The notes under the pieces are model-generated. The model did not search any database. It saw only the letters and a program-made list of their open reading frames with translations, and had not been told where the DNA came from. Both the position numbers and the translations under genes were made by a program. Positions 13,478 to 56,356 of a stretch of DNA of 64,000 nucleotides are shown one piece after another; within the stretch, counting starts at the first letter, position 1; each line of letters starts with the position of its first letter. The DNA comes from a virus: the IMG/VR virus record IMGVR_UViG_3300045988_136394, positions 32,001-96,000 of that record, one strand, 5' to 3'.

Positions 13478-15796
13478 TTAGCTAACCCCTATTGCAAATA
13501 TATAACAATCGCCCCAGTTTTGAATATCATCGTTATAGCCATTGTTGGTATTAAATGTAATGCTTGTATTAGACCTTGCTATAATATAAGGCACTAAGTT
13601 GGAGCTACACATTACATTTGAATAATAGCAAGTGGTAAAAGTGCGTGGAAATGTAAGTGTTCCACTGATGATATTACTTCTATTTACATATTCCCATTGT
13701 ACAGTTAAACCTGTACTGTTTTCTCTTGCCCAACCATTAGTACCTTTGGAGATTGTCCATGAACTATCTCCTGCTAATGCACTTATAGCTTGTTTAACTC
13801 TTAAAGGGGACATAAACTTTGTGTTATTAGTACCAGCCTCGGCTTCCGCTTCACTGGCAATAACAGGTTTGGGTATATCAATAGTTACATTACCATTTGT
13901 CGGTTTTATTCCATTAACACTTTTAACTACACTATTACTTAAATTAGTTAAGTCAGATTGTTTAGCTATTTGAGTCCAAGAAGGATTAGTATTATTAGTA
14001 ACATGGTAATGAGTGACATACATTGTTTGATTCGTGCCTGTAAAATGAAATATAGTAATATCTCCTGTAAGTCGAGTAGCTATAAAGTTACCATAACTTG
14101 CAGGATATATATCCGCAAAATTTTGTGCTTCAGAAGCATAATACTCCAATACACTGTTTATTGGTAATGCGGAGTGAATAGAAGCGAATGTTTCTTCCCC
14201 TGGAGTTATTCCGATTTGTTCTAAAGAAGTATATGTTGTTAAATTAGAACCACTTCCTGCATCACAGTTAATGGTAATATCTTGCGTGCCGTCAAAAGCC
14301 ACACCATTTATTGTGCGTGCGGTTTGTAACTTTGTTGCTGTATTAGCATTACCTAACCATTTTGCAACACCATCATGTGTGACCGTTGCAAAGGGATTAT
14401 TATTGCTAGAAAAAGTTACTTTTGTATTATCGTCACGTATGACAAACACATTATTATTCGTTCCAACTCTAAATACATGAGGTTGATTTGTGCTTGTGTG
14501 ATAAAATAATCCACCTAAATTATCCGTCCCAATTCTTGCTTGTACTGTTTCATTTGTTGGAGGAATACCAAAATTTATACTACCACTGCTACCTGCCGCA
14601 CTGCCATTTGATACTTTAATGTTTGCTCTGAAAGTATTTAAAGCTGTAAAGGTATTTGCTTGATTTAATAAGCCTACTTCATCAGTACAAGCAATTTCTC
14701 GCCATGCAGTCCAACTACTATTTTCATGGTAAAAACAGCGTTGATACGTTCTTGAAGCTACATAACTACTCCCATAAGTTCGATAAATCTGGACTAAACT
14801 TGTTCTAGGGGCATTAAATCCAATCAATACACTTAATACACCGCCCCTTGGCGTTGCATCATTATAGCTAGTGGGGAGATTTGCTATTGTGTTTGCTTCT
14901 GTATTGCTTTGTACTTGATATTCTCCAGGAGTTTTGTAATCATTAAAATCGCTATTTGAAGGGATAAAATTCGTTATGTTTAAATATTTAGCCGAATTTA
15001 CATCTCCGTTAGCTATACTATCATCTACATATTTTTTGTTCGGCACATCATTATTTACTGTAGGAGTTTTGTGTACTGTCAGTTCCAGCCCATTTGCATT
15101 AGTATATTTACCCCACGGAGTATTATTTAACGAGCTAAATTCTACTGTGCCATCAGAATTATACACGCTAGCAAAGGATGTTTGAATACCGCTTTGTAAA
15201 AAACAATGTCTATAATCAGCGGCACGCATTATTAATTCGCCTGTTTTATTTCTGACTATACTAGGTGTTTGTTCACTACCTTCAGGTTTTAGTCCGAGCC
15301 ATAAATAAGTTGATGCATCACCAGGAGTGGTAGCACTGCCCCGTATGTTTAAATTTGCATTAAATATAGCACTACCATTCCAATAGTTATTGCCTGTCCA
15401 TGTGTTATTGCCTGCTAATTTGCCATAGGTCGTATGAATATTATTGCCATTAATATCAGCTAATGCTTTTGTTGCTGTACCCGCTGCATATTCTTGAAAT
15501 GCGTCCATTGTGCCTAATTTAGTATCATCTACGACTTGATATTGTACTGGAGGAGTAACTCCTATTATCATTACAGTATCGCCATTTTGAACATCATCAA
15601 CAGTTAAAGCAAGCATATCTGTAACAGTATCAACCTTTATAACATTATCCAAGCCTGCTGGAGGAATATTAGAAATATCTAATTGTCCTTTTATACGAGT
15701 GGCATCAATATCACTGGTATTTACATAATCAATTAAACTATTTATATATTTGATAAATGCCAGTCCGGATAATGTTTTCGTTATTTTCTCAAACAT
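13478..15796 (-). CDS. Tail fiber protein (772 aa)
   Basis: Size and position; shares conserved segments (NTFTALNTFRANI, TARTINGVAFDGTQDITI) with the block-2 fiber at 43428..46103. Confidence 0.8.
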   Translation of the reverse strand: MFEKITKTLSGLAFIKYINSLIDYVNTSDIDATRIKGQLDISNIPPAGLDNVIKVDTVTDMLALTVDDVQNGDTVMIIGVTPPVQYQVVDDTKLGTMDAFQEYAAGTATKALADINGNNIHTTYGKLAGNNTWTGNNYWNGSAIFNANLNIRGSATTPGDASTYLWLGLKPEGSEQTPSIVRNKTGELIMRAADYRHCFLQSGIQTSFASVYNSDGTVEFSSLNNTPWGKYTNANGLELTVHKTPTVNNDVPNKKYVDDSIANGDVNSAKYLNITNFIPSNSDFNDYKTPGEYQVQSNTEANTIANLPTSYNDATPRGGVLSVLIGFNAPRTSLVQIYRTYGSSYVASRTYQRCFYHENSSWTAWREIACTDEVGLLNQANTFTALNTFRANIKVSNGSAAGSSGSINFGIPPTNETVQARIGTDNLGGLFYHTSTNQPHVFRVGTNNNVFVIRDDNTKVTFSSNNNPFATVTHDGVAKWLGNANTATKLQTARTINGVAFDGTQDITINCDAGSGSNLTTYTSLEQIGITPGEETFASIHSALPINSVLEYYASEAQNFADIYPASYGNFIATRLTGDITIFHFTGTNQTMYVTHYHVTNNTNPSWTQIAKQSDLTNLSNSVVKSVNGIKPTNGNVTIDIPKPVIASEAEAEAGTNNTKFMSPLRVKQAISALAGDSSWTISKGTNGWARENSTGLTVQWEYVNRSNIISGTLTFPRTFTTCYYSNVMCSSNLVPYIIARSNTSITFNTNNGYNDDIQNWGDCYIFAIGVS
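14268..14680. repeat. About 400-bp segment of tail fiber gene homologous (roughly 85-90% in the aligned stretches read by eye) to 44563..44955 in the block-2 fiber
   Basis: E.g. ggtaatatcttgcgtgccgtcaaa(a/t)gccacaccatttattgtgcg and gcaatgtttgctctgaaagtatttaaagctgtaaaggtatt present in both. Confidence 0.7.
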
Positions 15797-16976
15797 TTTC
15801 AGTAACTCCTTCCACTAAATCATAAATACATAATCTACCTGCAAAAGGATAAATTGCTCTTAATGTAACTGATTTATCAGTCATAGTATTAAATTCCATA
15901 TCCACGAAAGGCACTCTAATATATTGATTATTAGCTTCGTCCTTCATTTGAATATTTAAAATTGCTTTACCACTTGTATCAATTTCGATTGTATATGTAT
16001 CCCCATCAGCGACCCATAAATCTTCCGAAATCTCATCTGTAAATTCGAGGTAACTTGCAGCCTGATGAAATTTTTCATACCATTCCTGAATTTGCAAATA
16101 TTGCATATTTACATTTTCAGCTTTATTCGTAAGATCTTTTTCAATTTCTTGAATATTTTCATGTCTTGTTTGAATATCGGCATAAATGGTATCAATTTGT
16201 TCTTTTGCTTCTGTTACAATCTCTTGATTAGCCTGCGCTCTATCTGCATCTAATTTAGCGGATTCTGCACTTTCTGCGGCATTGGATTCTGAATTAGCGG
16301 CATTTAATTCAGATTGTTTAGCATTTTGTGAATATATTTTAGATTCACCAGCATAACGTCCAGCTTCTGTTTCTGACTTACTAGCCGCCTCTGCAGAAGT
16401 TTTAGCCGCTTCTGCATATTGATAAGCTGTATTTGTTGATTCCTGAACTTGATGAAGTAAATCTTCTATATCTGATTTAACATCTTTAACATTTTGATAA
16501 ATTACATCAATTTGGTTTTTAATATTTTGGGAGGCTTCTTGTGCCTTTTTAGCTTCATCAGCCGCTTTAACAGCTTTATCTGCATTTTCCTGAACTTGTT
16601 GAACATATTGTTCAAATATATCTGGAGTAGGATCTTCAGGAAGTAGACTATCCTCATTAAACCCACTATCAATAATTTCTATATCGATTTCATTAGTTGT
16701 TGCTCTTTTGTTATCCATAGATACGGCAAAAGCATTTACCTGCATTATTCCTGCACCAACTAAAACTTCCCACGGTACTGGATATTCTACGCCATCTGAA
16801 ATGTTGGTTACATTGTAAGTTTTTCCATTCTTGGTAAATTGTACTGTCTTACCTACATAATTAGCCCAATCTTCAGAGGTTTCAAGTGTAAATGTTAAAT
16901 AACCCTTACTATCTGCAACAACTTCAGAATCTCCATAATAACTCAATCTTTGTTTAAATATTCTAAATTTTATCAT
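15789..16976 (-). CDS. Tail fiber/structural protein with long Ala/Glu/Lys-rich coiled coil
   Basis: Low-complexity coiled-coil centre, position in fiber cluster. Confidence 0.55.
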   Translation of the reverse strand: MIKFRIFKQRLSYYGDSEVVADSKGYLTFTLETSEDWANYVGKTVQFTKNGKTYNVTNISDGVEYPVPWEVLVGAGIMQVNAFAVSMDNKRATTNEIDIEIIDSGFNEDSLLPEDPTPDIFEQYVQQVQENADKAVKAADEAKKAQEASQNIKNQIDVIYQNVKDVKSDIEDLLHQVQESTNTAYQYAEAAKTSAEAASKSETEAGRYAGESKIYSQNAKQSELNAANSESNAAESAESAKLDADRAQANQEIVTEAKEQIDTIYADIQTRHENIQEIEKDLTNKAENVNMQYLQIQEWYEKFHQAASYLEFTDEISEDLWVADGDTYTIEIDTSGKAILNIQMKDEANNQYIRVPFVDMEFNTMTDKSVTLRAIYPFAGRLCIYDLVEGVTENV

Positions 16977-17029
16977 TTTTAATTCCTTTCTTTAAAGATC
17001 AGAATAAGCTCCATAACCATACGGCTAAT

Positions 17030-17278
17030 ATAAATACTACTCCAGCGCAAGGTTCTTTCCGTACTTGGAAGTTTGATCCAGTAGCTTCCGGAGTGTTTTC
17101 ATCTACCTATTTAGGACGATGGGCAAATAGCAAAAATGGCGGAGATGATGCCATGTGGCAAGTTAACTTTAATTTAGCAAATACATTAAATAATATTACT
17201 ATTGGAAATTCTGGAGAATCTGAAGGATTTCCAAAACACGTTATAATGCCTTATTACCTGAGAGTTTTAAATATTTAA
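17030..17278 (+). pseudogene. Start-less tail fiber C-terminal domain paralog, opposite orientation, convergent with 17267..18241
   Basis: Open frame from 17030 without ATG; encodes GVFSSTYLGRWAN...FPKHVIMPYYLRVLNI, homologous to C-terminus of adjacent fiber (...AYPKHIIMPYYLRILNI). Confidence 0.45.
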
Positions 17279-18241
17279 TATTCTTAAATAATATGGCATA
17301 ATTATATGCTTTGGATAAGCTTCTTCTCCACCTGTATTCACGCCTGTAGATTCAATTTTAATATCATGATTATGGTCGCCATTAAATTGTATAACTTCAC
17401 GAGTATCACTTTTATGAGCACATTCGCCAGCCCATGTACCAGTTCCGGAAAATACGCCAGTTGTTCGACCCCAACTGCCTCCAACCTGATTTCCTGCAAT
17501 GAAAGTTCCTCGAAGTTGTGTAGTTCCAGTCTTATTTCCAGTGGCCAAATTATGGTTATGGAGCTTATTCTGATCTTTAAAGAAAGAACCAGCATTTTCT
17601 CCACCACGACCAAAATCTAATATAAATGGAGTTCTAAAAGTTGTACTGTCATCACCAGTTGAAAAATAGCCAACAGAAGTTTTATTTAATGTTAACATTT
17701 TTTGCCATTCAACTTCAGAAGTTAAAGGATAATATTTTTGAACAAAATCCCACAATTCTGGATATTCTGATCTATTTAATACATGACTTTGTGTCATTTT
17801 TAAGTATCCTGGAGGAGCGCTATTCCATAATTGCTGTTTAATCGTTCCTATTGGTGTAGTATCTGCAGATACTTGAATTGGTTGTTCTTCCCAAATAATA
17901 TCATTATCTGTTATCGTTCTGGAACCTTCTTGTCCACTTGCTTCCGACCATGTTGGTTCATTACTTCCACTTGTACCAGCATTTTTAGATACTAATTTAG
18001 TATGCAATCCAAAAGGATAAAGTAATACAGAATTTTTAGGATATGCTGTATTCGGTTGCCAAGAAAATCTTTTTAAAAATTCTGCATGCTGTTGCAATGT
18101 ATTTTCCCAACCATTAATATTTTTAGCCATTACAATGTCGTTATCTGTGTCATGCCATAAATGAGCGATGTAATCAGTAATTTTCATAACAATATTATTA
18201 GCCATTTGTTCCAACCTCCCGAATATTAATTCGATGTTCAA
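17267..18241 (-). CDS. Tail fiber protein (short fiber)
   Basis: Position after XkdU-like gene; C-terminal receptor-binding-like domain. Confidence 0.6.
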   Translation of the reverse strand: MNIELIFGRLEQMANNIVMKITDYIAHLWHDTDNDIVMAKNINGWENTLQQHAEFLKRFSWQPNTAYPKNSVLLYPFGLHTKLVSKNAGTSGSNEPTWSEASGQEGSRTITDNDIIWEEQPIQVSADTTPIGTIKQQLWNSAPPGYLKMTQSHVLNRSEYPELWDFVQKYYPLTSEVEWQKMLTLNKTSVGYFSTGDDSTTFRTPFILDFGRGGENAGSFFKDQNKLHNHNLATGNKTGTTQLRGTFIAGNQVGGSWGRTTGVFSGTGTWAGECAHKSDTREVIQFNGDHNHDIKIESTGVNTGGEEAYPKHIIMPYYLRILNI

Positions 18242-39592: not shown

Positions 39593-39887
39593 CGTCATCT
39601 CCGTTATTTTCCATAATAGCCCCGCAAGCCTGACAATAATTGTCTTTGCTATATAATCCGAACTTGCTGTCGCATACGCTACATTGGATAAAGTTGCCAT
39701 ACTTATCAGGTTCTAATTCAATCCAATGCCCATGCTTACGTTCTTCTACAACTGGCATTGTATCAAGCCTATCAGCAGCACTTTGATAACCACTTCTAAT
39801 GCCGTCGAAAAAGCCAGGCCAAGCGGGTATAGTTTCAGCTATTGCTAATAACTCAGCTTTCGCCTTATCAGCGTCTATCAATCTCAT
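39582..39887 (-). CDS. Zinc-ribbon protein, paralog family (ERKHGHW...C.VC...C..CGA)
   Basis: Shared C-terminal motif with 39891..40154 and 41500..41916. Confidence 0.5.
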   Translation of the reverse strand: MRLIDADKAKAELLAIAETIPAWPGFFDGIRSGYQSAADRLDTMPVVEERKHGHWIELEPDKYGNFIQCSVCDSKFGLYSKDNYCQACGAIMENNGDDDDE

Positions 39888-39890
39888 AAT

Positions 39891-40154
39891 TTATTCACCG
39901 TCCATTTTAGCCCCGCACTCCGGGCAGTATTTTGTTTCGTATTCTTGTGGTTTTTTGCAAACGCTACATATGCTAGTATCTAAATCAATATCTTCCCAAT
40001 GCCCGTGCTTGCGTTCTTCTACTGTAGGGGCTTTGTCTATTAAACCTTGAAAAACGTTTAACGCATGAGCAAAACGAAAATCAGCCTTTGCATAAGCGTT
40101 TAACACTTCATTCATTAGTTCCATGCTTAAAGCGTCTTTATCTATTAATTTCAT
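39891..40154 (-). CDS. Zinc-ribbon protein, paralog family
   Basis: C-terminus EERKHGHWEDIDLDTSICSVCKKPQEYETKYCPECGAKMDGE. Confidence 0.5.
   Translation of the reverse strand: MKLIDKDALSMELMNEVLNAYAKADFRFAHALNVFQGLIDKAPTVEERKHGHWEDIDLDTSICSVCKKPQEYETKYCPECGAKMDGE
39895..39947. repeat. 53-bp exact direct repeat (copy 1); copy 2 at 41516..41568
   Basis: Identical string tcaccgtccattttagccccgcactccgggcagtattttgtttcgtattctt at both sites. Confidence 0.8.
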
Positions 40155-40195: not shown

Positions 40196-40690
40196 TCACA
40201 ATACGTCGTCAGCCTCAATAACGGTCTTGTCATCATATTTTGATACCAATAGTACATCATGTCCGTAATATCCGTTGTGTTCATTATATGCAGCAAATTG
40301 TAACAAGCCTCTAGTCGTTTCAACATTAATAAACATAGCTGATCCAGCATCTAGATCTTCTTTCATGTTTGATACTATTGTCCCCAACTTAGTATCGGTA
40401 ACATAAACATTTTTTAATTCACTGCCAATAAAGCTTCCAAAATCGTCTTCACTAGATAAATAGCCCCAATTTTCACAACAATCTTGTTCATTATTTATGA
40501 CAAAATATAATTGTCTTGAATCTGTTTCAATACAATATCCATCATATGTGTTCCATTTATTATCAAAATAGACATCACTAACTTCTGTTATATTTTTTAT
40601 AATTTCCATATTTTTATTCACGCTCCAATACAGGCTCATAAGTTTCAAGGAAGATATCTTCATTTTTACTCGCTCCAATTTTTCGCGCAC
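40196..40690 (-). CDS. Hypothetical protein
   Basis: ORF. Confidence 0.45.
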   Translation of the reverse strand: MREKLERVKMKISSLKLMSLYWSVNKNMEIIKNITEVSDVYFDNKWNTYDGYCIETDSRQLYFVINNEQDCCENWGYLSSEDDFGSFIGSELKNVYVTDTKLGTIVSNMKEDLDAGSAMFINVETTRGLLQFAAYNEHNGYYGHDVLLVSKYDDKTVIEADDVL

Positions 40691-54477: not shown

Positions 54478-55641
54478 TCATGCAATCTTGTAAGTTTTAG
54501 CATCTTTTAAATTAAGTGCCGCATTGAAATCCCTGTCTGCAACATAGCCACATTCACATCTGTAAATTCTATCTGAAAGCTTTAAATTTTTCCTGATAGA
54601 ACCACAATGGTGACATGTCTTTGAAGATGGATAAAATCTATCTGCTACCCTTAATTCAATGCCTTTTTCATCACACTTGGCTTTAAGCCTTTTTCTAAAT
54701 TCATAAAACTTCTGAGATGCAACAGCTTTTGAAAGACACCTGTTTTTCATCATTCCTTTTACATTTAAATCTTCAATCGTTATGTAAGACGGTTTGGTTT
54801 TCACTATCTCAGCGATTGTCTTGTTAATGTAATCAGTACGGATATTATCCATTTTATGATGAAGTTTTTGTACCTTAAGCTTTTGTTTCTGTATATTTGC
54901 TCTTTGAGTGGACTCTCCTTTCTTTAAATTTTCATACTTTCGGGAAAGACTTCTCTGTTCCCGGATCAGTTGTTTTTCAAGTTTCTTTAATCCTGCCGAT
55001 TTGTTGATGTTCCTGTATGTCTTTCCATTTGAAATAATAGCAAAGTCTTTTAGCCCAAGGTCTATACCGATTCCCTCGTTTAAGTTATTGTTAATATTGA
55101 CATCGGGAATCTCTACAAGAACAGAAACATAAAATCTGCCAGCCTTAACAGACACTGTACCACTTCTGATCATATATCCATCCTTTGTTGTTGGGATATA
55201 TCCTTTTTCTTTGATACGGACCCAGCCCAGAGTTGGGATCTTAAGTCTGTGCCTTTCGCATTGACAATCCTTTGGGTTATTTCTGACGAAATACATTTTC
55301 ACATCAGATTTACCTTTCTTTTTAAATTTAGGAAAATCACTCTGATGTTTAAAAAATCTTGTAAAAGCAGCACATCCATCTTCGATAGACTTTTTTACGG
55401 CTTTTGAATACACTTCCCTGATCCATGTTTTGTCAGGATTATCTGGAATGTATTCGTTATTAAGCCATAGACTAAAGCTCTTACCAGTCATAAACTTTTC
55501 ACCATTATCATGCAGGGCTTTGTTGTGACCAAGGTAGAAGTTATAAACATATCGGCAAGTGCCTATCGTCTTACGGATTCGGGCTTTCTGTTCTTCAGTT
55601 GGGTTGATTTCCGTCTTGAAGCTCTTTAGCAATCTCTTCAT
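54478..55641 (-). CDS. tnpB: TnpB (OrfB_IS605 family, RuvC-like + zinc finger)
   Basis: GIDLGLKDF (RuvC-I), CHHCG...CECG zinc finger, RDFNAALN (RuvC-III). Confidence 0.85.
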   Translation of the reverse strand: MKRLLKSFKTEINPTEEQKARIRKTIGTCRYVYNFYLGHNKALHDNGEKFMTGKSFSLWLNNEYIPDNPDKTWIREVYSKAVKKSIEDGCAAFTRFFKHQSDFPKFKKKGKSDVKMYFVRNNPKDCQCERHRLKIPTLGWVRIKEKGYIPTTKDGYMIRSGTVSVKAGRFYVSVLVEIPDVNINNNLNEGIGIDLGLKDFAIISNGKTYRNINKSAGLKKLEKQLIREQRSLSRKYENLKKGESTQRANIQKQKLKVQKLHHKMDNIRTDYINKTIAEIVKTKPSYITIEDLNVKGMMKNRCLSKAVASQKFYEFRKRLKAKCDEKGIELRVADRFYPSSKTCHHCGSIRKNLKLSDRIYRCECGYVADRDFNAALNLKDAKTYKIA

Positions 55642-56242
55642 CCTTTTCTATTTGTTTTTTATACTTACGAAGTCCGTACAATCTACAGGAAAAAACATGA
55701 AGTATAGATACAATATCCTGTACAAGTTCTTCTTGCGGTGATAGTTCTTCATTGTTCACTATCACTATAGTTGTATTGAACTTCATACAGAATTTTTCAA
55801 ACCAGTCATATCCAAATCTGATAAATCTGTCTTTATGTGCAACTATGATGGTTTTAATTTTTTGTTCCATTACTTCATCTAACATCTGATTCCACTTTTT
55901 GCGGTTATAGTTTAAACCACTGTCATAATCTTCAATACATTGGTCTACAATCATTCCTCTGGCATTACAGAATTGACGTAAAAACGATACTTGATTCTGT
56001 AAATCATCCTTTTGATTTCTTGTAGAAACTCTTGCATAAATAACAACTTGTCGAGTATCATTCTCTGTATCTATGCCTTTGAATTGAAGATATTGGTTGT
56101 AAGTATAATAACGCCTGTCAGTTGGAGTTCGATTCGCTTTTAGCGTTCCTTCCCTGTCCCAACGCTGTAATGTTTTCACAGAGACACCTAATAATTCAGC
56201 AAAATCTTTTGGTTTATAATTAGTGATATTCGATGTGTTCAT
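55595..56242 (-). CDS. tnpA: IS607-type serine recombinase transposase TnpA (N-terminal MerR-like HTH + resolvase catalytic domain)
   Basis: HTH DFAELLGVSVKTLQRWDREG; catalytic VIYARVSTRNQ; start taken at ATG 56242 (RBS GGGGGG). Confidence 0.8.
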   Translation of the reverse strand: MNTSNITNYKPKDFAELLGVSVKTLQRWDREGTLKANRTPTDRRYYTYNQYLQFKGIDTENDTRQVVIYARVSTRNQKDDLQNQVSFLRQFCNARGMIVDQCIEDYDSGLNYNRKKWNQMLDEVMEQKIKTIIVAHKDRFIRFGYDWFEKFCMKFNTTIVIVNNEELSPQEELVQDIVSILHVFSCRLYGLRKYKKQIEKDEEIAKELQDGNQPN

Positions 56243-56356
56243 AGCAATACCCCCCATGAGCACATTTTAACACATTTAATCACTAATATCAATGTTATCG
56301 ATTGCTTAAAAATTCTCCTTTGATATGTCACATAATTTTGTACGCTTTCAAGTTTT

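What the first reader, a model, noticed from the sequence alone, without database searches (positions are those of the whole stretch)
17030..17320. Start-less alternative tail-fiber C-terminal domain in inverted orientation, joined tail-to-tail to the fiber gene through a perfect 12-bp palindrome that encodes LNI-stop on both strands
The minus-strand fiber gene (17267..18241) ends ...AYPKHIIMPYYLRILNI*. On the plus strand an open frame (17030..17278, no start codon) encodes a homologous domain ending ...GFPKHVIMPYYLRVLNI*. The two stops overlap in TTAAATATTTAA (17267-17278), which is its own reverse complement, and the flanking about 45 bp on each side form an imperfect inverted repeat (CCAAAACACGTTATAATGCC... 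versus CCAAAGCATATAATTATGCC...).
This is the layout of Mu G-segment / P1 C-segment inversion cassettes (convergent U/U'-type ends), suggesting present or past host-range switching by DNA inversion. No invertase gene is present in block 1. The only serine recombinase in the window is the IS607 TnpA at 55.6 kb.
Basis: partly seen in the sequence, partly recalled or inferred. Interest (0 to 1): 0.6.

Follow-up and report, generated by a model that had tools for sequence, protein, structure and literature searches.

The report
Flippable tail-fibre tip, no invertase
A common uncultured human-gut phage carries a 601-bp DNA segment that flips between two perfect 36-bp inverted repeats and thereby swaps the last ~90 amino acids of a tail fibre, yet its ~64-kb genome encodes no recognisable invertase.

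Summary
A perfect 36-bp inverted repeat (16986-17021 / 17551-17586) brackets both C-terminal cassettes and reads (S)FFKDQNKLHNH in frame in both.

Inverting 16986-17586 in silico gives an in-frame 303-aa fibre. That exact protein is on 62 public contigs, and the window's own 312-aa isoform is on 34. Two natural gut contigs (L166, L175) are identical over 3.9 kb except for the orientation of the 529-bp segment. Two diverged lineages each occur in both orientations. All 38 cassettes examined are intact, and the two arms change in concert.

The 12-bp palindrome is not a crossover site. Both cassettes end in LNI-stop, so they can share those four codons.

The window is a composite. Block 1 (1-40664) is part of a ~64-kb gut myophage. 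Block 2, which holds the IS607 TnpA, belongs to a different phage. The full genome of the block-1 phage, rebuilt from relatives, has no serine or tyrosine recombinase. It does have RecA, RecU, SSB and a Cas4-like nuclease.

I read this as a Mu-G-like host-range switch of a new variant. It is probably driven by homology. A recombinase supplied in trans is the main rival.

The parts
17551..17586 (.). Inverted-repeat arm inside the fibre gene, at the constant/variable junction. It encodes (S)FFKDQNKLHNH on the minus strand.
   Evidence: I1, 36 nt, 100% complementary.
16986..17021 (.). Far inverted-repeat arm at the 5' end of the silent cassette. It reads the same FFKDQNKLHNH on the plus strand. 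Its outer end overlaps the purine-rich ribosome-binding site (GAAAGGAA) of the downstream gene, 9 nt from that gene's ATG.
   Evidence: One search shows the sequence upstream of the downstream ATG is unchanged by inversion.
17022..17550 (.). The 529-bp segment between the arms, whose orientation differs among otherwise identical natural genomes.
   Evidence: L166 against L175: 0 mismatches once the segment is reverse-complemented; window against L174: 2/0/1.
17267..17550 (-). Cassette X, currently expressed: NLATGNKTG...AYPKHIIMPYYLRILNI*, 94 codons after the repeat plus the stop.
17022..17278 (+). Cassette Y, currently silent and without a start codon: TANINTTPAQGS...GFPKHVIMPYYLRVLNI*, 85 codons after the repeat plus the stop. 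It is expressed in the flipped state.
   Evidence: the exact flipped isoform is on 62 public contigs.
17267..17278 (.). TTAAATATTTAA palindrome. It is the last three codons plus the stop (LNI*) of both cassettes, shared by overlap. It is conserved in lineages A, B and C.
   Evidence: searches give cassette lengths and arm positions, from which I compute a 12-nt overlap in lineages A and B; (lineage C).
17222..17323 (.). Imperfect inverted repeat around the palindrome. It arises from the homologous cassette ends (PKH[IV]IMPYYLR[IV]LNI). It is a potential mRNA hairpin.
   Evidence: 37 of 51 per arm; -37.6 kcal/mol, z = -5.75. No U-tract terminator.
17587..18205 (-). Constant N-terminal part of the tail-fibre gene, residues 1-206.
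   Evidence: alignment; PHROG tail-fibre families; T5 pb1 fibre, 8hqz; P2-like Burkholderia phage long tail fibre.
15789..16976 (-). Downstream 395-aa tail-fibre-like gene. It is read through the silent cassette in either orientation.
   Evidence: PHROG tail and tail-fibre hits.

Best explanation
**What it is.** Window 16986-17586 is an active invertible segment in the genome of an uncultured human-gut myophage of about 64 kb. The host is probably a Bacillota species.

**How it works.**
- The fibre gene has a constant part (residues 1-206) that ends in the motif FFKDQNKLHNH.
- That motif is encoded by a 36-bp sequence that recurs, perfectly inverted, 529 bp downstream.
- Two homologous but diverged C-terminal cassettes lie between the copies, tail to tail. 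X is 94 aa and Y is 85 aa. They overlap in their last four codons.
- Recombination between the two arms flips the segment. The constant part is then fused in frame to the other cassette. This changes the distal, presumably receptor-binding, tip of the fibre.
- The neighbouring genes and the downstream ribosome-binding site are left untouched.

**Shown.**
- The repeat is there.
- The fusion after inversion is in frame.
- Both states occur in nature, in genomes that are otherwise identical.
- Both cassettes are kept intact under purifying selection.

**Inferred.** The flips change host range. They are made without a dedicated invertase, by homology-dependent recombination across the matched arms. 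The likely agents are the phage's own RecA-family recombinase, SSB, Cas4-like nuclease and RecU resolvase, or replication template switching.

**Confidence.**
- About 0.9 that this is a real, recurrently flipping fibre switch.
- About 0.45 that the flipping is homology-driven rather than made by an unseen site-specific recombinase.
- The figure given below is for the switch together with the absence of a cis-encoded invertase.
For: **Anatomy.**
- A perfect 36-nt inverted repeat is in frame in both cassettes.
- It is the only inverted repeat of 24 nt or more in 40.6 kb.

**Outcome of inversion.**
- In-silico inversion gives a 303-aa ORF.
- That exact protein is on 62 public contigs. The window's own isoform is on 34.
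- Cluster sizes are 426 (X-on) against 661 (Y-on) in lineage A. They are 214 against 234 in lineage B.

**Clean natural inversions.**
- L166 against L175: 0 mismatches in 2119 + 529 + 1192 nt apart from the orientation.
- Window against L174: 2, 0 and 1 mismatches.

**Recurrence.**
- Lineages A and B are 74-81% identical in the flanks. Each occurs in both states, with identical outer flanks and swapped inner flanks.
- Orientation is scattered over the flank tree.

**Heterogeneity within assemblies.**
- Contig 3300045988_115771 (64185 bp) stops exactly at the inner edge of the repeat at both ends.
- L032 stops there at one end.

**Selection.**
- All 19 silent and 19 expressed cassettes are intact.
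- dN/dS between lineages is 0.11-0.14 for Y and 0.44-0.56 for X, at dS 0.6-1.3.

**No invertase.**
- Pfam and PHROGs scans of block 1 and of the rest of the genome find no serine or tyrosine recombinase and no integrase.
- The rest of the genome was rebuilt from relatives, and the circle closes.
- Lineage-B genomes that carry the cassette are syntenic with it gene for gene.

**Pointers to homology.**
- The arms are identical within a genome, although X and Y are only 53% identical.
- Arm variants change in concert: GATCAGAATAAG in A, GACCAAAATAAA in B, and TTC in both arms of L027.
- Lineage C has a different 29-bp repeat. It is shifted about 9 nt upstream and pairs X with a third cassette type, Z.
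- The arms show no internal dyad symmetry above shuffles and no hix-like core.
- The phage has a RecA homologue (E = 8.5e-30), RecU, SSB and a Cas4-like exonuclease.
Against: - No reads were mapped, so flipping within one population is inferred from contig ends and from identical genome pairs in different samples. It was not observed directly.
- Exchange of the whole region between co-infecting phages could spread the two orientations without new inversions.
- 36 bp (29 bp in lineage C) is near the lower limit for RecA-type recombination (my own knowledge). The repeat also has sharp edges and a conserved length, as a protein-recognised site would.
- Several phage proteins of 150-330 aa have no assignable function. 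One of them could be an unrecognised recombinase.
- The host is unknown. A host invertase acting in trans, like RecV of Clostridioides difficile (my own knowledge), cannot be tested.
- The receptor-binding role of the swapped part rests on distant similarity only. The structure model was too poor to use (pLDDT 43).
- About 4 kb of the early region was seen only in relatives whose fibre type is unknown.
Confidence: 0.8

Rival explanations
1. The switch is real, but a site-specific recombinase acting in trans makes the flips. This could be a host-encoded invertase of the kind that flips many scattered invertons in gut bacteria. It could also be a phage protein too divergent to be recognised.
For: - The repeat has sharp boundaries and a nearly constant length of 35-36 bp in two lineages whose flanks are 19-26% diverged.
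- 36 bp is short for homologous recombination (my own knowledge).
- Clean inversions exact to the base are seen.
- Several phage ORFs of recombinase-like size remain unassigned.
- Host invertases that act on distant sites are described in the literature cited in PMC13501310.
Against: - No serine or tyrosine recombinase domain is found anywhere in the rebuilt genome.
- The arms lack the dyad symmetry of recombinase core sites.
- The arm sequence drifts at synonymous sites, always in both arms together. A fixed-point crossover does not by itself produce this.
- Lineage C uses a different, shifted 29-bp repeat.
- A phage without an integrase would depend on every host carrying the right enzyme.
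Confidence: 0.4
2. This is not a working switch. It is a fossil inverted duplication of the fibre 3' end. One or a few ancient inversions gave two stable genotypes. Ordinary recombination between co-infecting phages then moved them into different genetic backgrounds.
For: - The flanks are clearly mosaic. The window is 100% identical to L024 upstream of the segment but only 91.4% identical downstream.
- Decayed variants exist. L028 has a 58-bp deletion that removes part of the far arm and the first 17 codons of Y. L009 has mismatched arms.
- Most relatives carry a fixed, non-invertible C-terminus.
Against: - Pairs of genomes are identical over 3.9 kb apart from the orientation.
- Both states occur in both lineages at similar frequency.
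- Silent cassettes are intact in 19 of 19 genomes and are under purifying selection. A never-expressed fossil would not be.
- The arms are kept identical while the cassettes are 47% diverged.
- Contigs break at the inner edge of the repeat.
Confidence: 0.08
3. The two orientations are assembly artefacts caused by the inverted repeat.
For: Inverted repeats can confuse assemblers. Some of the contigs have low coverage.
Against: - The repeat is only 36 bp. That is shorter than the final k-mers named in the contig labels (k119, k141) and shorter than reads.
- Both orientations appear in dozens of independent assemblies from different pipelines. Some have high coverage, such as cov 129 and cov 1002.
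- Each lineage shows its own cassettes in both states.
Confidence: 0.02

Closest known systems
Phage Mu G segment with Gin. The relatives are the P1/P7 C segment with Cin, e14 P with Pin, and p15B Min.
   Same: - An invertible segment has one inverted-repeat arm inside the tail-fibre ORF, at the constant/variable junction.
- Two alternative C-terminal coding parts lie in opposite orientation.
- Inversion gives an in-frame fusion and, in Mu and P1, a different host range.
- The repeat length is similar. Mu's is 34 bp (my own knowledge).
   Different: - There is no serine invertase next to the segment or anywhere in the genome.
- The arms have no hix/gix-type dyad site.
- The segment is 0.6 kb, not 3-4 kb.
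- It carries only the last 85-94 codons of one gene.
- It has no alternative fibre-assembly genes (U/U').
- The two cassettes share their last four codons in a palindrome.
- The phage has no integrase, and its genes point to a Bacillota host.
Gene-altering programmed inversions, also called intragenic invertons (Milman et al. 2023, PMC9881135; Chanin et al., PMC10028968)
   Same: Inverted repeats recode the 3' part of a specificity-determining gene. Tail-fibre and tail-collar genes in prophages are among the enriched families listed in PMC9881135.
   Different: Those surveys covered bacterial chromosomes, including prophages. In PMC9881135 invertase and integrase genes are among the families enriched at the loci. 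Here the element sits in an integrase-less phage genome assembled from metagenomes, with no recombinase.
Large invertible regions in Anabaena cyanophages, flanked by 400-700-bp repeats (bioRxiv 10.64898/2026.02.14.705889)
   Same: - Both orientations are found among close relatives, with no link to phylogeny.
- The authors raise the possibility that isomers are maintained even without a dedicated recombinase.
   Different: - There the segment is about 30 kb and the repeats are 400-700 bp, ample for homologous recombination. No coding sequence is spliced.
- Here the arms are 36 bp and the inversion splices a gene.
R64-type shufflon (Rci) and invertible hsdS cassettes of Type I restriction systems
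   Same: The C-terminal specificity domain of a surface or target-recognition protein is swapped by inversion at short repeats inside coding sequence.
   Different: - Those systems have multiple segments and repeats, and an adjacent tyrosine recombinase.
- Here there is one repeat pair, two cassettes and no recombinase.

Membership tests
Gin/Cin/Pin/Hin-type tail-fibre inversion system | The segment is bounded by inverted repeats, with one arm inside the fibre ORF at the constant/variable junction. | tested here: met
   36-nt perfect repeat, in frame in both cassettes.
Gin/Cin/Pin/Hin-type tail-fibre inversion system | Inversion fuses the constant part in frame to an alternative C-terminus, and both states occur. 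| tested here: met
Gin/Cin/Pin/Hin-type tail-fibre inversion system | A serine invertase gene (Resolvase catalytic domain with a C-terminal HTH) lies beside the segment. | tested here: not met
   - None is found in window 1-40664 or in the rest of the genome rebuilt from relatives.
- The only Resolvase-domain protein (55595-56263) is an IS607-type TnpA in a block from another phage.
Gin/Cin/Pin/Hin-type tail-fibre inversion system | The crossover site is of hix/gix/cix type: two 12-bp dyad half-sites around a 2-bp core, with AAACC-NN-GGTTT (consensus from my own knowledge). | tested here: not met
   no AAACC or GGTTT in or around either arm; the best dyad in the arms is no better than in shuffles.
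Gin/Cin/Pin/Hin-type tail-fibre inversion system | Alternative fibre-assembly (U/U'-type) genes lie inside the segment. | tested here: not met
   the 529-bp core holds only the two partial cassettes.
Gin/Cin/Pin/Hin-type tail-fibre inversion system | A Fis-dependent recombinational enhancer is present. | not testable with these tools
   This needs biochemistry.
Gene-altering programmed inversion (intragenic inverton), generic class | An inverted-repeat pair has at least one arm in a CDS, the two orientations encode different protein variants, and both orientations are observed. | tested here: met
   Co-occurrence within one sample is only inferred from contig ends.
Shufflon (Rci-type multiple inversion system) | Several segments are separated by multiple short repeats, with an adjacent tyrosine recombinase. 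| tested here: not met
   a single repeat pair. No Phage_integrase-domain protein in any scan.
Diversity-generating retroelement | A reverse transcriptase is present, with a template and a variable repeat that differ at adenines. | tested here: not met
   No reverse transcriptase in any scan. X and Y are inverted, only 53% identical, and differ at all base types.
Phage distal tail-fibre / receptor-binding protein | The protein shows sequence similarity to characterised tail fibres and sits in a baseplate/fibre gene block. | tested here: met
   - PHROG tail and tail-fibre families.
- T5 L-shaped fibre 8hqz, E = 8.6e-11.
- P2-like Burkholderia phage long tail fibre, 28% identity over residues 110-308.
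- The gene follows the Baseplate_J and Mu-Gp48-like genes.
- No Pfam family matches, and the fold could not be modelled.

The most novel reading that the evidence does not exclude
This may be a programmed, selectively maintained inversion switch that needs no dedicated invertase. The phage would keep two 36-bp arms perfectly matched and let its general recombination machinery (RecA-family recombinase, SSB, nuclease, RecU), or replication template switching, flip the receptor-binding tip. That would be a homology-driven host-range switch. It would be cheap to evolve by an inverted duplication of a gene's 3' end. It would also be invisible to gene callers and to searches that look for invertases.
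Probability: 0.4. Interest if true: 0.8.

Novelty: new variant of a known kind. Interest (0 to 1): 0.66.

Why it matters
**Departure from the textbook cases.** Tail-fibre inversion is textbook biology for Mu and P1. It has been tied to temperate phages of Proteobacteria and to a neighbouring serine invertase.

Here the same outcome appears in a widespread uncultured human-gut phage. Its primase is indexed in 4752 blocks of the assembly collection. Its two fibre isoforms form clusters of 426 and 661 sequences. It has no integrase and no invertase, and the cassette is only 0.6 kb.

**Consequences if the flips are homology-driven.**
- Host-range switching can arise from a simple inverted duplication.
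- Methods that anchor on recombinase genes would miss it.

**Practical points.**
- Gene callers report the silent cassette only as a 41- or 93-aa reverse-strand ORF without annotation. Half of the phage's receptor repertoire is therefore hidden in current catalogues.
- Host prediction and strain tracking for such phages need to treat the two orientations as one genome.
- The system gives a directly testable case: there are exact natural pairs that differ only by the flip.

Tried and rejected
**IS607 TnpA (55595-56263) as the invertase: rejected.**
- Its relatives sit on 37 viral contigs, none of which carries the fibre.
- Relatives of the block-2 Baseplate_J are likewise on other contigs.
- The block junction is at 40664|40665.
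- GC content is 0.327 in block 1 against 0.402 in block 2.

**The palindrome or its imperfect flanks as the crossover site: rejected.**
- Recombination there would invert nothing of consequence.
- The C-terminal motif MPYYLRxLN[IL] is also present in fixed, non-invertible fibres.

**Searches that found nothing.**
- DNA searches of cultured phages (INPHARED), near and distant: no match.
- Species-representative bacterial genomes: no relative of the fibre and no match to the repeat pattern. There is therefore no prophage copy and no host assignment.
- Sequence searches of four unassigned proteins against PDB: nothing.
- A search for the lineage-C repeat in IMG/VR: no match.
- The top-ten sample lists for the two exact isoforms: no sample in common.
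- Literature searches: no description of this phage or of an invertase-less fibre switch.

**Other dead ends.**
- AlphaFold2 model of the fibre: pLDDT 43, with the C-terminal third unmodelled. No fold search was run.
- Terminator and promoter scan around the segment: nothing above background.
- Diversity-generating retroelement and shufflon readings: considered and rejected (see the membership test).
Full report
**1. The observation**

- The minus-strand ORF 17267..18241 ends ...AYPKHIIMPYYLRILNI*. Its likely start is the ATG at 18205.
- On the plus strand a frame without a usable start codon ends ...GFPKHVIMPYYLRVLNI* at 17278. It is open from 16967, not 17030.
- The two stop codons lie in TTAAATATTTAA (17267-17278), which is its own reverse complement.
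- The flanks of the palindrome are an imperfect inverted repeat, 37 of 51 positions per arm. In the mRNA they could form a hairpin of -37.6 kcal/mol, z = -5.75.

**2.

- A perfect 36-nt inverted repeat, CTTTCTTTAAAGATCAGAATAAGCTCCATAACCATA, lies at 16986-17021 and 17551-17586, with 529 nt between the arms.
- It is the only inverted repeat of 24 nt or more in window 1-40664.
- In the fibre gene it encodes (S)FFKDQNKLHNH, at the point where relatives begin to differ.
- On the plus strand it encodes the same residues at the head of the start-less frame.
- The far arm ends 9 nt from the ATG of the next gene (15789..16976). Its outer end forms part of that gene's purine-rich ribosome-binding site.
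- Inverting 16986-17586 in silico gives an in-frame 303-aa fibre. It leaves the 40 nt upstream of the next gene unchanged.

**3. Both states exist in nature**

A degenerate pattern for the repeat and a search with the fibre protein recovered relatives from IMG/VR and from human-gut metagenomes. Two lineages emerged:

| Lineage | Repeat | Between arms | Expressed/silent pairs seen |
|---|---|---|---|
| A | 36 bp | 529 nt | X on, Y silent; or Y on, X silent |
| B | 35 bp, three synonymous changes present in both arms | 507 nt | X' on, Y' silent; or Y' on, X' silent |

- In each lineage some genomes express the X-type cassette and carry Y silent, and others do the reverse. The outer flanks are identical and the inner flanks are swapped.
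- The exact in-silico flipped isoform of this window is on 62 public contigs. The window's own isoform is on 34.
- At 90% identity the clusters hold 426 (A, X-on), 661 (A, Y-on), 214 (B, X'-on) and 234 (B, Y'-on) sequences.
- L166 (X-on) and L175 (Y-on) come from different samples. They have 0 mismatches in 2119 nt on the left, 0 in the 529-nt segment once reverse-complemented, and 0 in 1192 nt on the right.
- The window differs from the Y-on contig L174 by 2, 0 and 1 mismatches.
- Orientation is scattered over a tree built from the flanks.
- One 64185-bp contig stops exactly at the inner edge of the repeat at both ends. Another contig stops there at one end. An assembly graph branches at that point when both orientations are present in the sample.

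**4. The switch is maintained by selection**

- All 19 silent and all 19 expressed cassettes examined are intact ORFs.
- Between lineages A and B, dN/dS is 0.11-0.14 for Y and 0.44-0.56 for X, at dS 0.6-1.3.
- X and Y are only 53% identical at the DNA level. The arms are nevertheless identical within almost every genome, and arm variants always occur in both arms together.
- Decay is seen now and then. L009 has one mismatch in each arm, and L012, L161 and L163 have one mismatch. L028 has lost 58 bp, including the inner end of the far arm and the first 17 codons of Y.

**5. A wider family of fibre ends**

- Most relatives have a fixed 328-aa fibre with a third C-terminal type, Z. The next gene follows at once.
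- Others have a fixed X-like end.
- Lineage C (L155) again has an invertible layout, but with differences. Its repeat is 29 bp, with a different sequence, and is shifted about 9 nt upstream (it encodes IGKYYNDQN). An X-like cassette is expressed and a Z-like cassette is silent. The two cassettes have the same TTAAATATTTAA stop overlap.
- The C-terminal motif MPYYLRxLN[IL] is common to all three types. This explains the palindrome and its imperfect flanks as by-products of coding, not as recombination sites.

**6. Context**

*The window is a composite.*
- Block 1 (1-40664, GC 0.327) matches phage contigs of 63-67 kb.
- Block 2 (40665-64000, GC 0.402) matches a different phage of about 50 kb.
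- Relatives of the block-2 Baseplate_J and of the IS607-type TnpA are on none of the fibre-carrying contigs. The TnpA is therefore irrelevant.

*The block-1 phage.*
- I rebuilt the missing part of its genome from relatives that are 98-99% identical to the window where they overlap it, and the circle closes.
- The genome encodes the following:
  - Virion genes: a PBSX/YqbQ-like baseplate, sheath, tube, portal and terminase.
  - Replication genes: DnaD, a DnaC-like loader, a DnaB-type helicase, primase, DNA polymerase A, a sliding clamp and its loader.
  - DNA-modification genes: a 7-deazaguanine pathway with a DpdA-like transglycosylase.
  - Recombination genes: SSB, a Cas4-like exonuclease, RecU and a RecA homologue.
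- No serine or tyrosine recombinase and no integrase was found.
- Lineage-B genomes that carry the cassette are syntenic gene for gene with this reconstruction around the polymerase.
- No relative is present in cultured phages at the DNA level or in species-representative bacterial genomes.
- The terminase is at most 51% identical to any record in the phage collection. Among the listed matches that name a host, the best are phages of Bacillota.

**7. Mechanism**

*Shown.* An inversion with its breakpoints inside the repeat converts one natural genome into another. It swaps the last 94 or 85 residues of a protein that is similar to distal tail fibres: PHROG tail-fibre families, T5 pb1, and P2-like long fibres over residues 110-308.

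*Inferred.* The swap changes receptor specificity.

*The enzyme is open.* The following points favour homology-dependent recombination:
- No invertase is present.
- The arms evolve in concert.
- Synonymous drift is tolerated as long as both arms match.
- Lineage C has a shifted and different repeat.
- The arms lack dyad symmetry.
- The phage has a full recombination kit of its own.

The following points count against it:
- The arms are short.
- Their edges are sharp.
- Several phage proteins remain unassigned.
- The host is unknown, and it could supply an invertase in trans.

I put the homology-driven reading at about 0.45 and a trans-acting site-specific recombinase at about 0.4.

**8. Comparison with known systems**

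- The layout and the outcome are those of Mu G, P1 C and their relatives.
- The defining invertase gene, the hix/gix-type site and the paired fibre-assembly genes were tested and not found. This is therefore not a member of that family.
- It fits the generic class of gene-altering programmed inversions (PMC9881135).
- A 2026 paper states that putative invertons on metagenome-assembled gut viral genomes had not been reported before it (PMC13501310).
- A cyanophage preprint raises the maintenance of isomers without a dedicated recombinase, but for repeats of 400-700 bp and with no gene splicing.

**9. Verdict**

This is a real and widespread invertible tail-fibre tip cassette, and a new variant of a known kind. 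The open and interesting point is how it flips without an invertase.

Noticed in passing
window 40664|40665: The window joins two different phages. Block 1 (1-40664, GC 0.327) is part of a phage of about 64 kb. Block 2 (40665-64000, GC 0.402) matches a phage of about 50 kb. About 10 bp at the junction are shared by relatives of both, so it could be an assembly chimera, a concatenation or a natural recombinant. All genes in both blocks are on the minus strand.
   Followed up: partly
window 14270-14669, within the 772-aa fibre gene 13478-15796; L143 7434-7833: A 400-bp stretch of the block-1 long fibre gene is 90% identical to part of the roughly 890-aa fibre of relatives of the block-2 phage. 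The same stretch is 82% identical in L145 and 69% in L144. This suggests fibre-module exchange between two otherwise unrelated gut phages, and perhaps a shared host.
   Followed up: no
window 54478-56263: An IS607-type element (MerR-HTH plus Resolvase TnpA, and TnpB with a Cas12f-like TNB domain) is inserted in the structural region of the block-2 phage. Relatives of the TnpA at 80-92% identity are on 37 IMG/VR contigs of many sizes, so the element is spreading among gut phages.
   Followed up: partly
L138 15041-18381 (relatives of block 1, beyond the window start): The block-1 phage family carries QueC, QueD (PTPS), QueE (radical SAM), GTP cyclohydrolase I and a DpdA-like transglycosylase. 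This implies 7-deazaguanine modification of its DNA.
   Followed up: no
L146 1360-3177 (relatives of block 1, early region): A stretch of about 1.8 kb in the early region has no called gene. It is conserved in position in three relatives (L146-L148). It could be an origin, a regulatory region or non-coding RNA.
   Followed up: no
L028 around 1011-1019 (equivalent to window 17014-17071): A natural variant has a 58-bp deletion that removes the inner end of the far repeat arm and the first 17 codons of cassette Y. The other arm carries a point change. It looks like a switch locked in the X-on state.
   Followed up: partly
window 39714-39907; L142 10800-10997: A short early-region stretch of block 1 is about 80% identical to the block-2 phage family. 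This is another sign of mosaic exchange between the two phages.
   Followed up: no
L025 and L038 (both from contig OIYW01000024.1, 115199 bp): One metagenome contig holds the fibre locus twice, with identical flanks and the same orientation. At 115 kb it is about 1.8 genome lengths, so it is probably a concatemeric assembly of a circularly permuted genome.
   Followed up: no
L182 and L187 (both from contig IMGVR_UViG_3300045988_138881, 81541 bp): This contig carries two DNA polymerase A genes, one 99% and one 82% identical to the query. It seems to join lineage-A and lineage-B genomes and may be chimeric.
   Followed up: no
L159-L168 2428-2553 and L170-L179 2401-2682: Public gene calls show the silent cassette only as an unannotated reverse-strand ORF of 41 or 93 aa. 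The alternative fibre end is therefore invisible in protein catalogues.
   Followed up: yes
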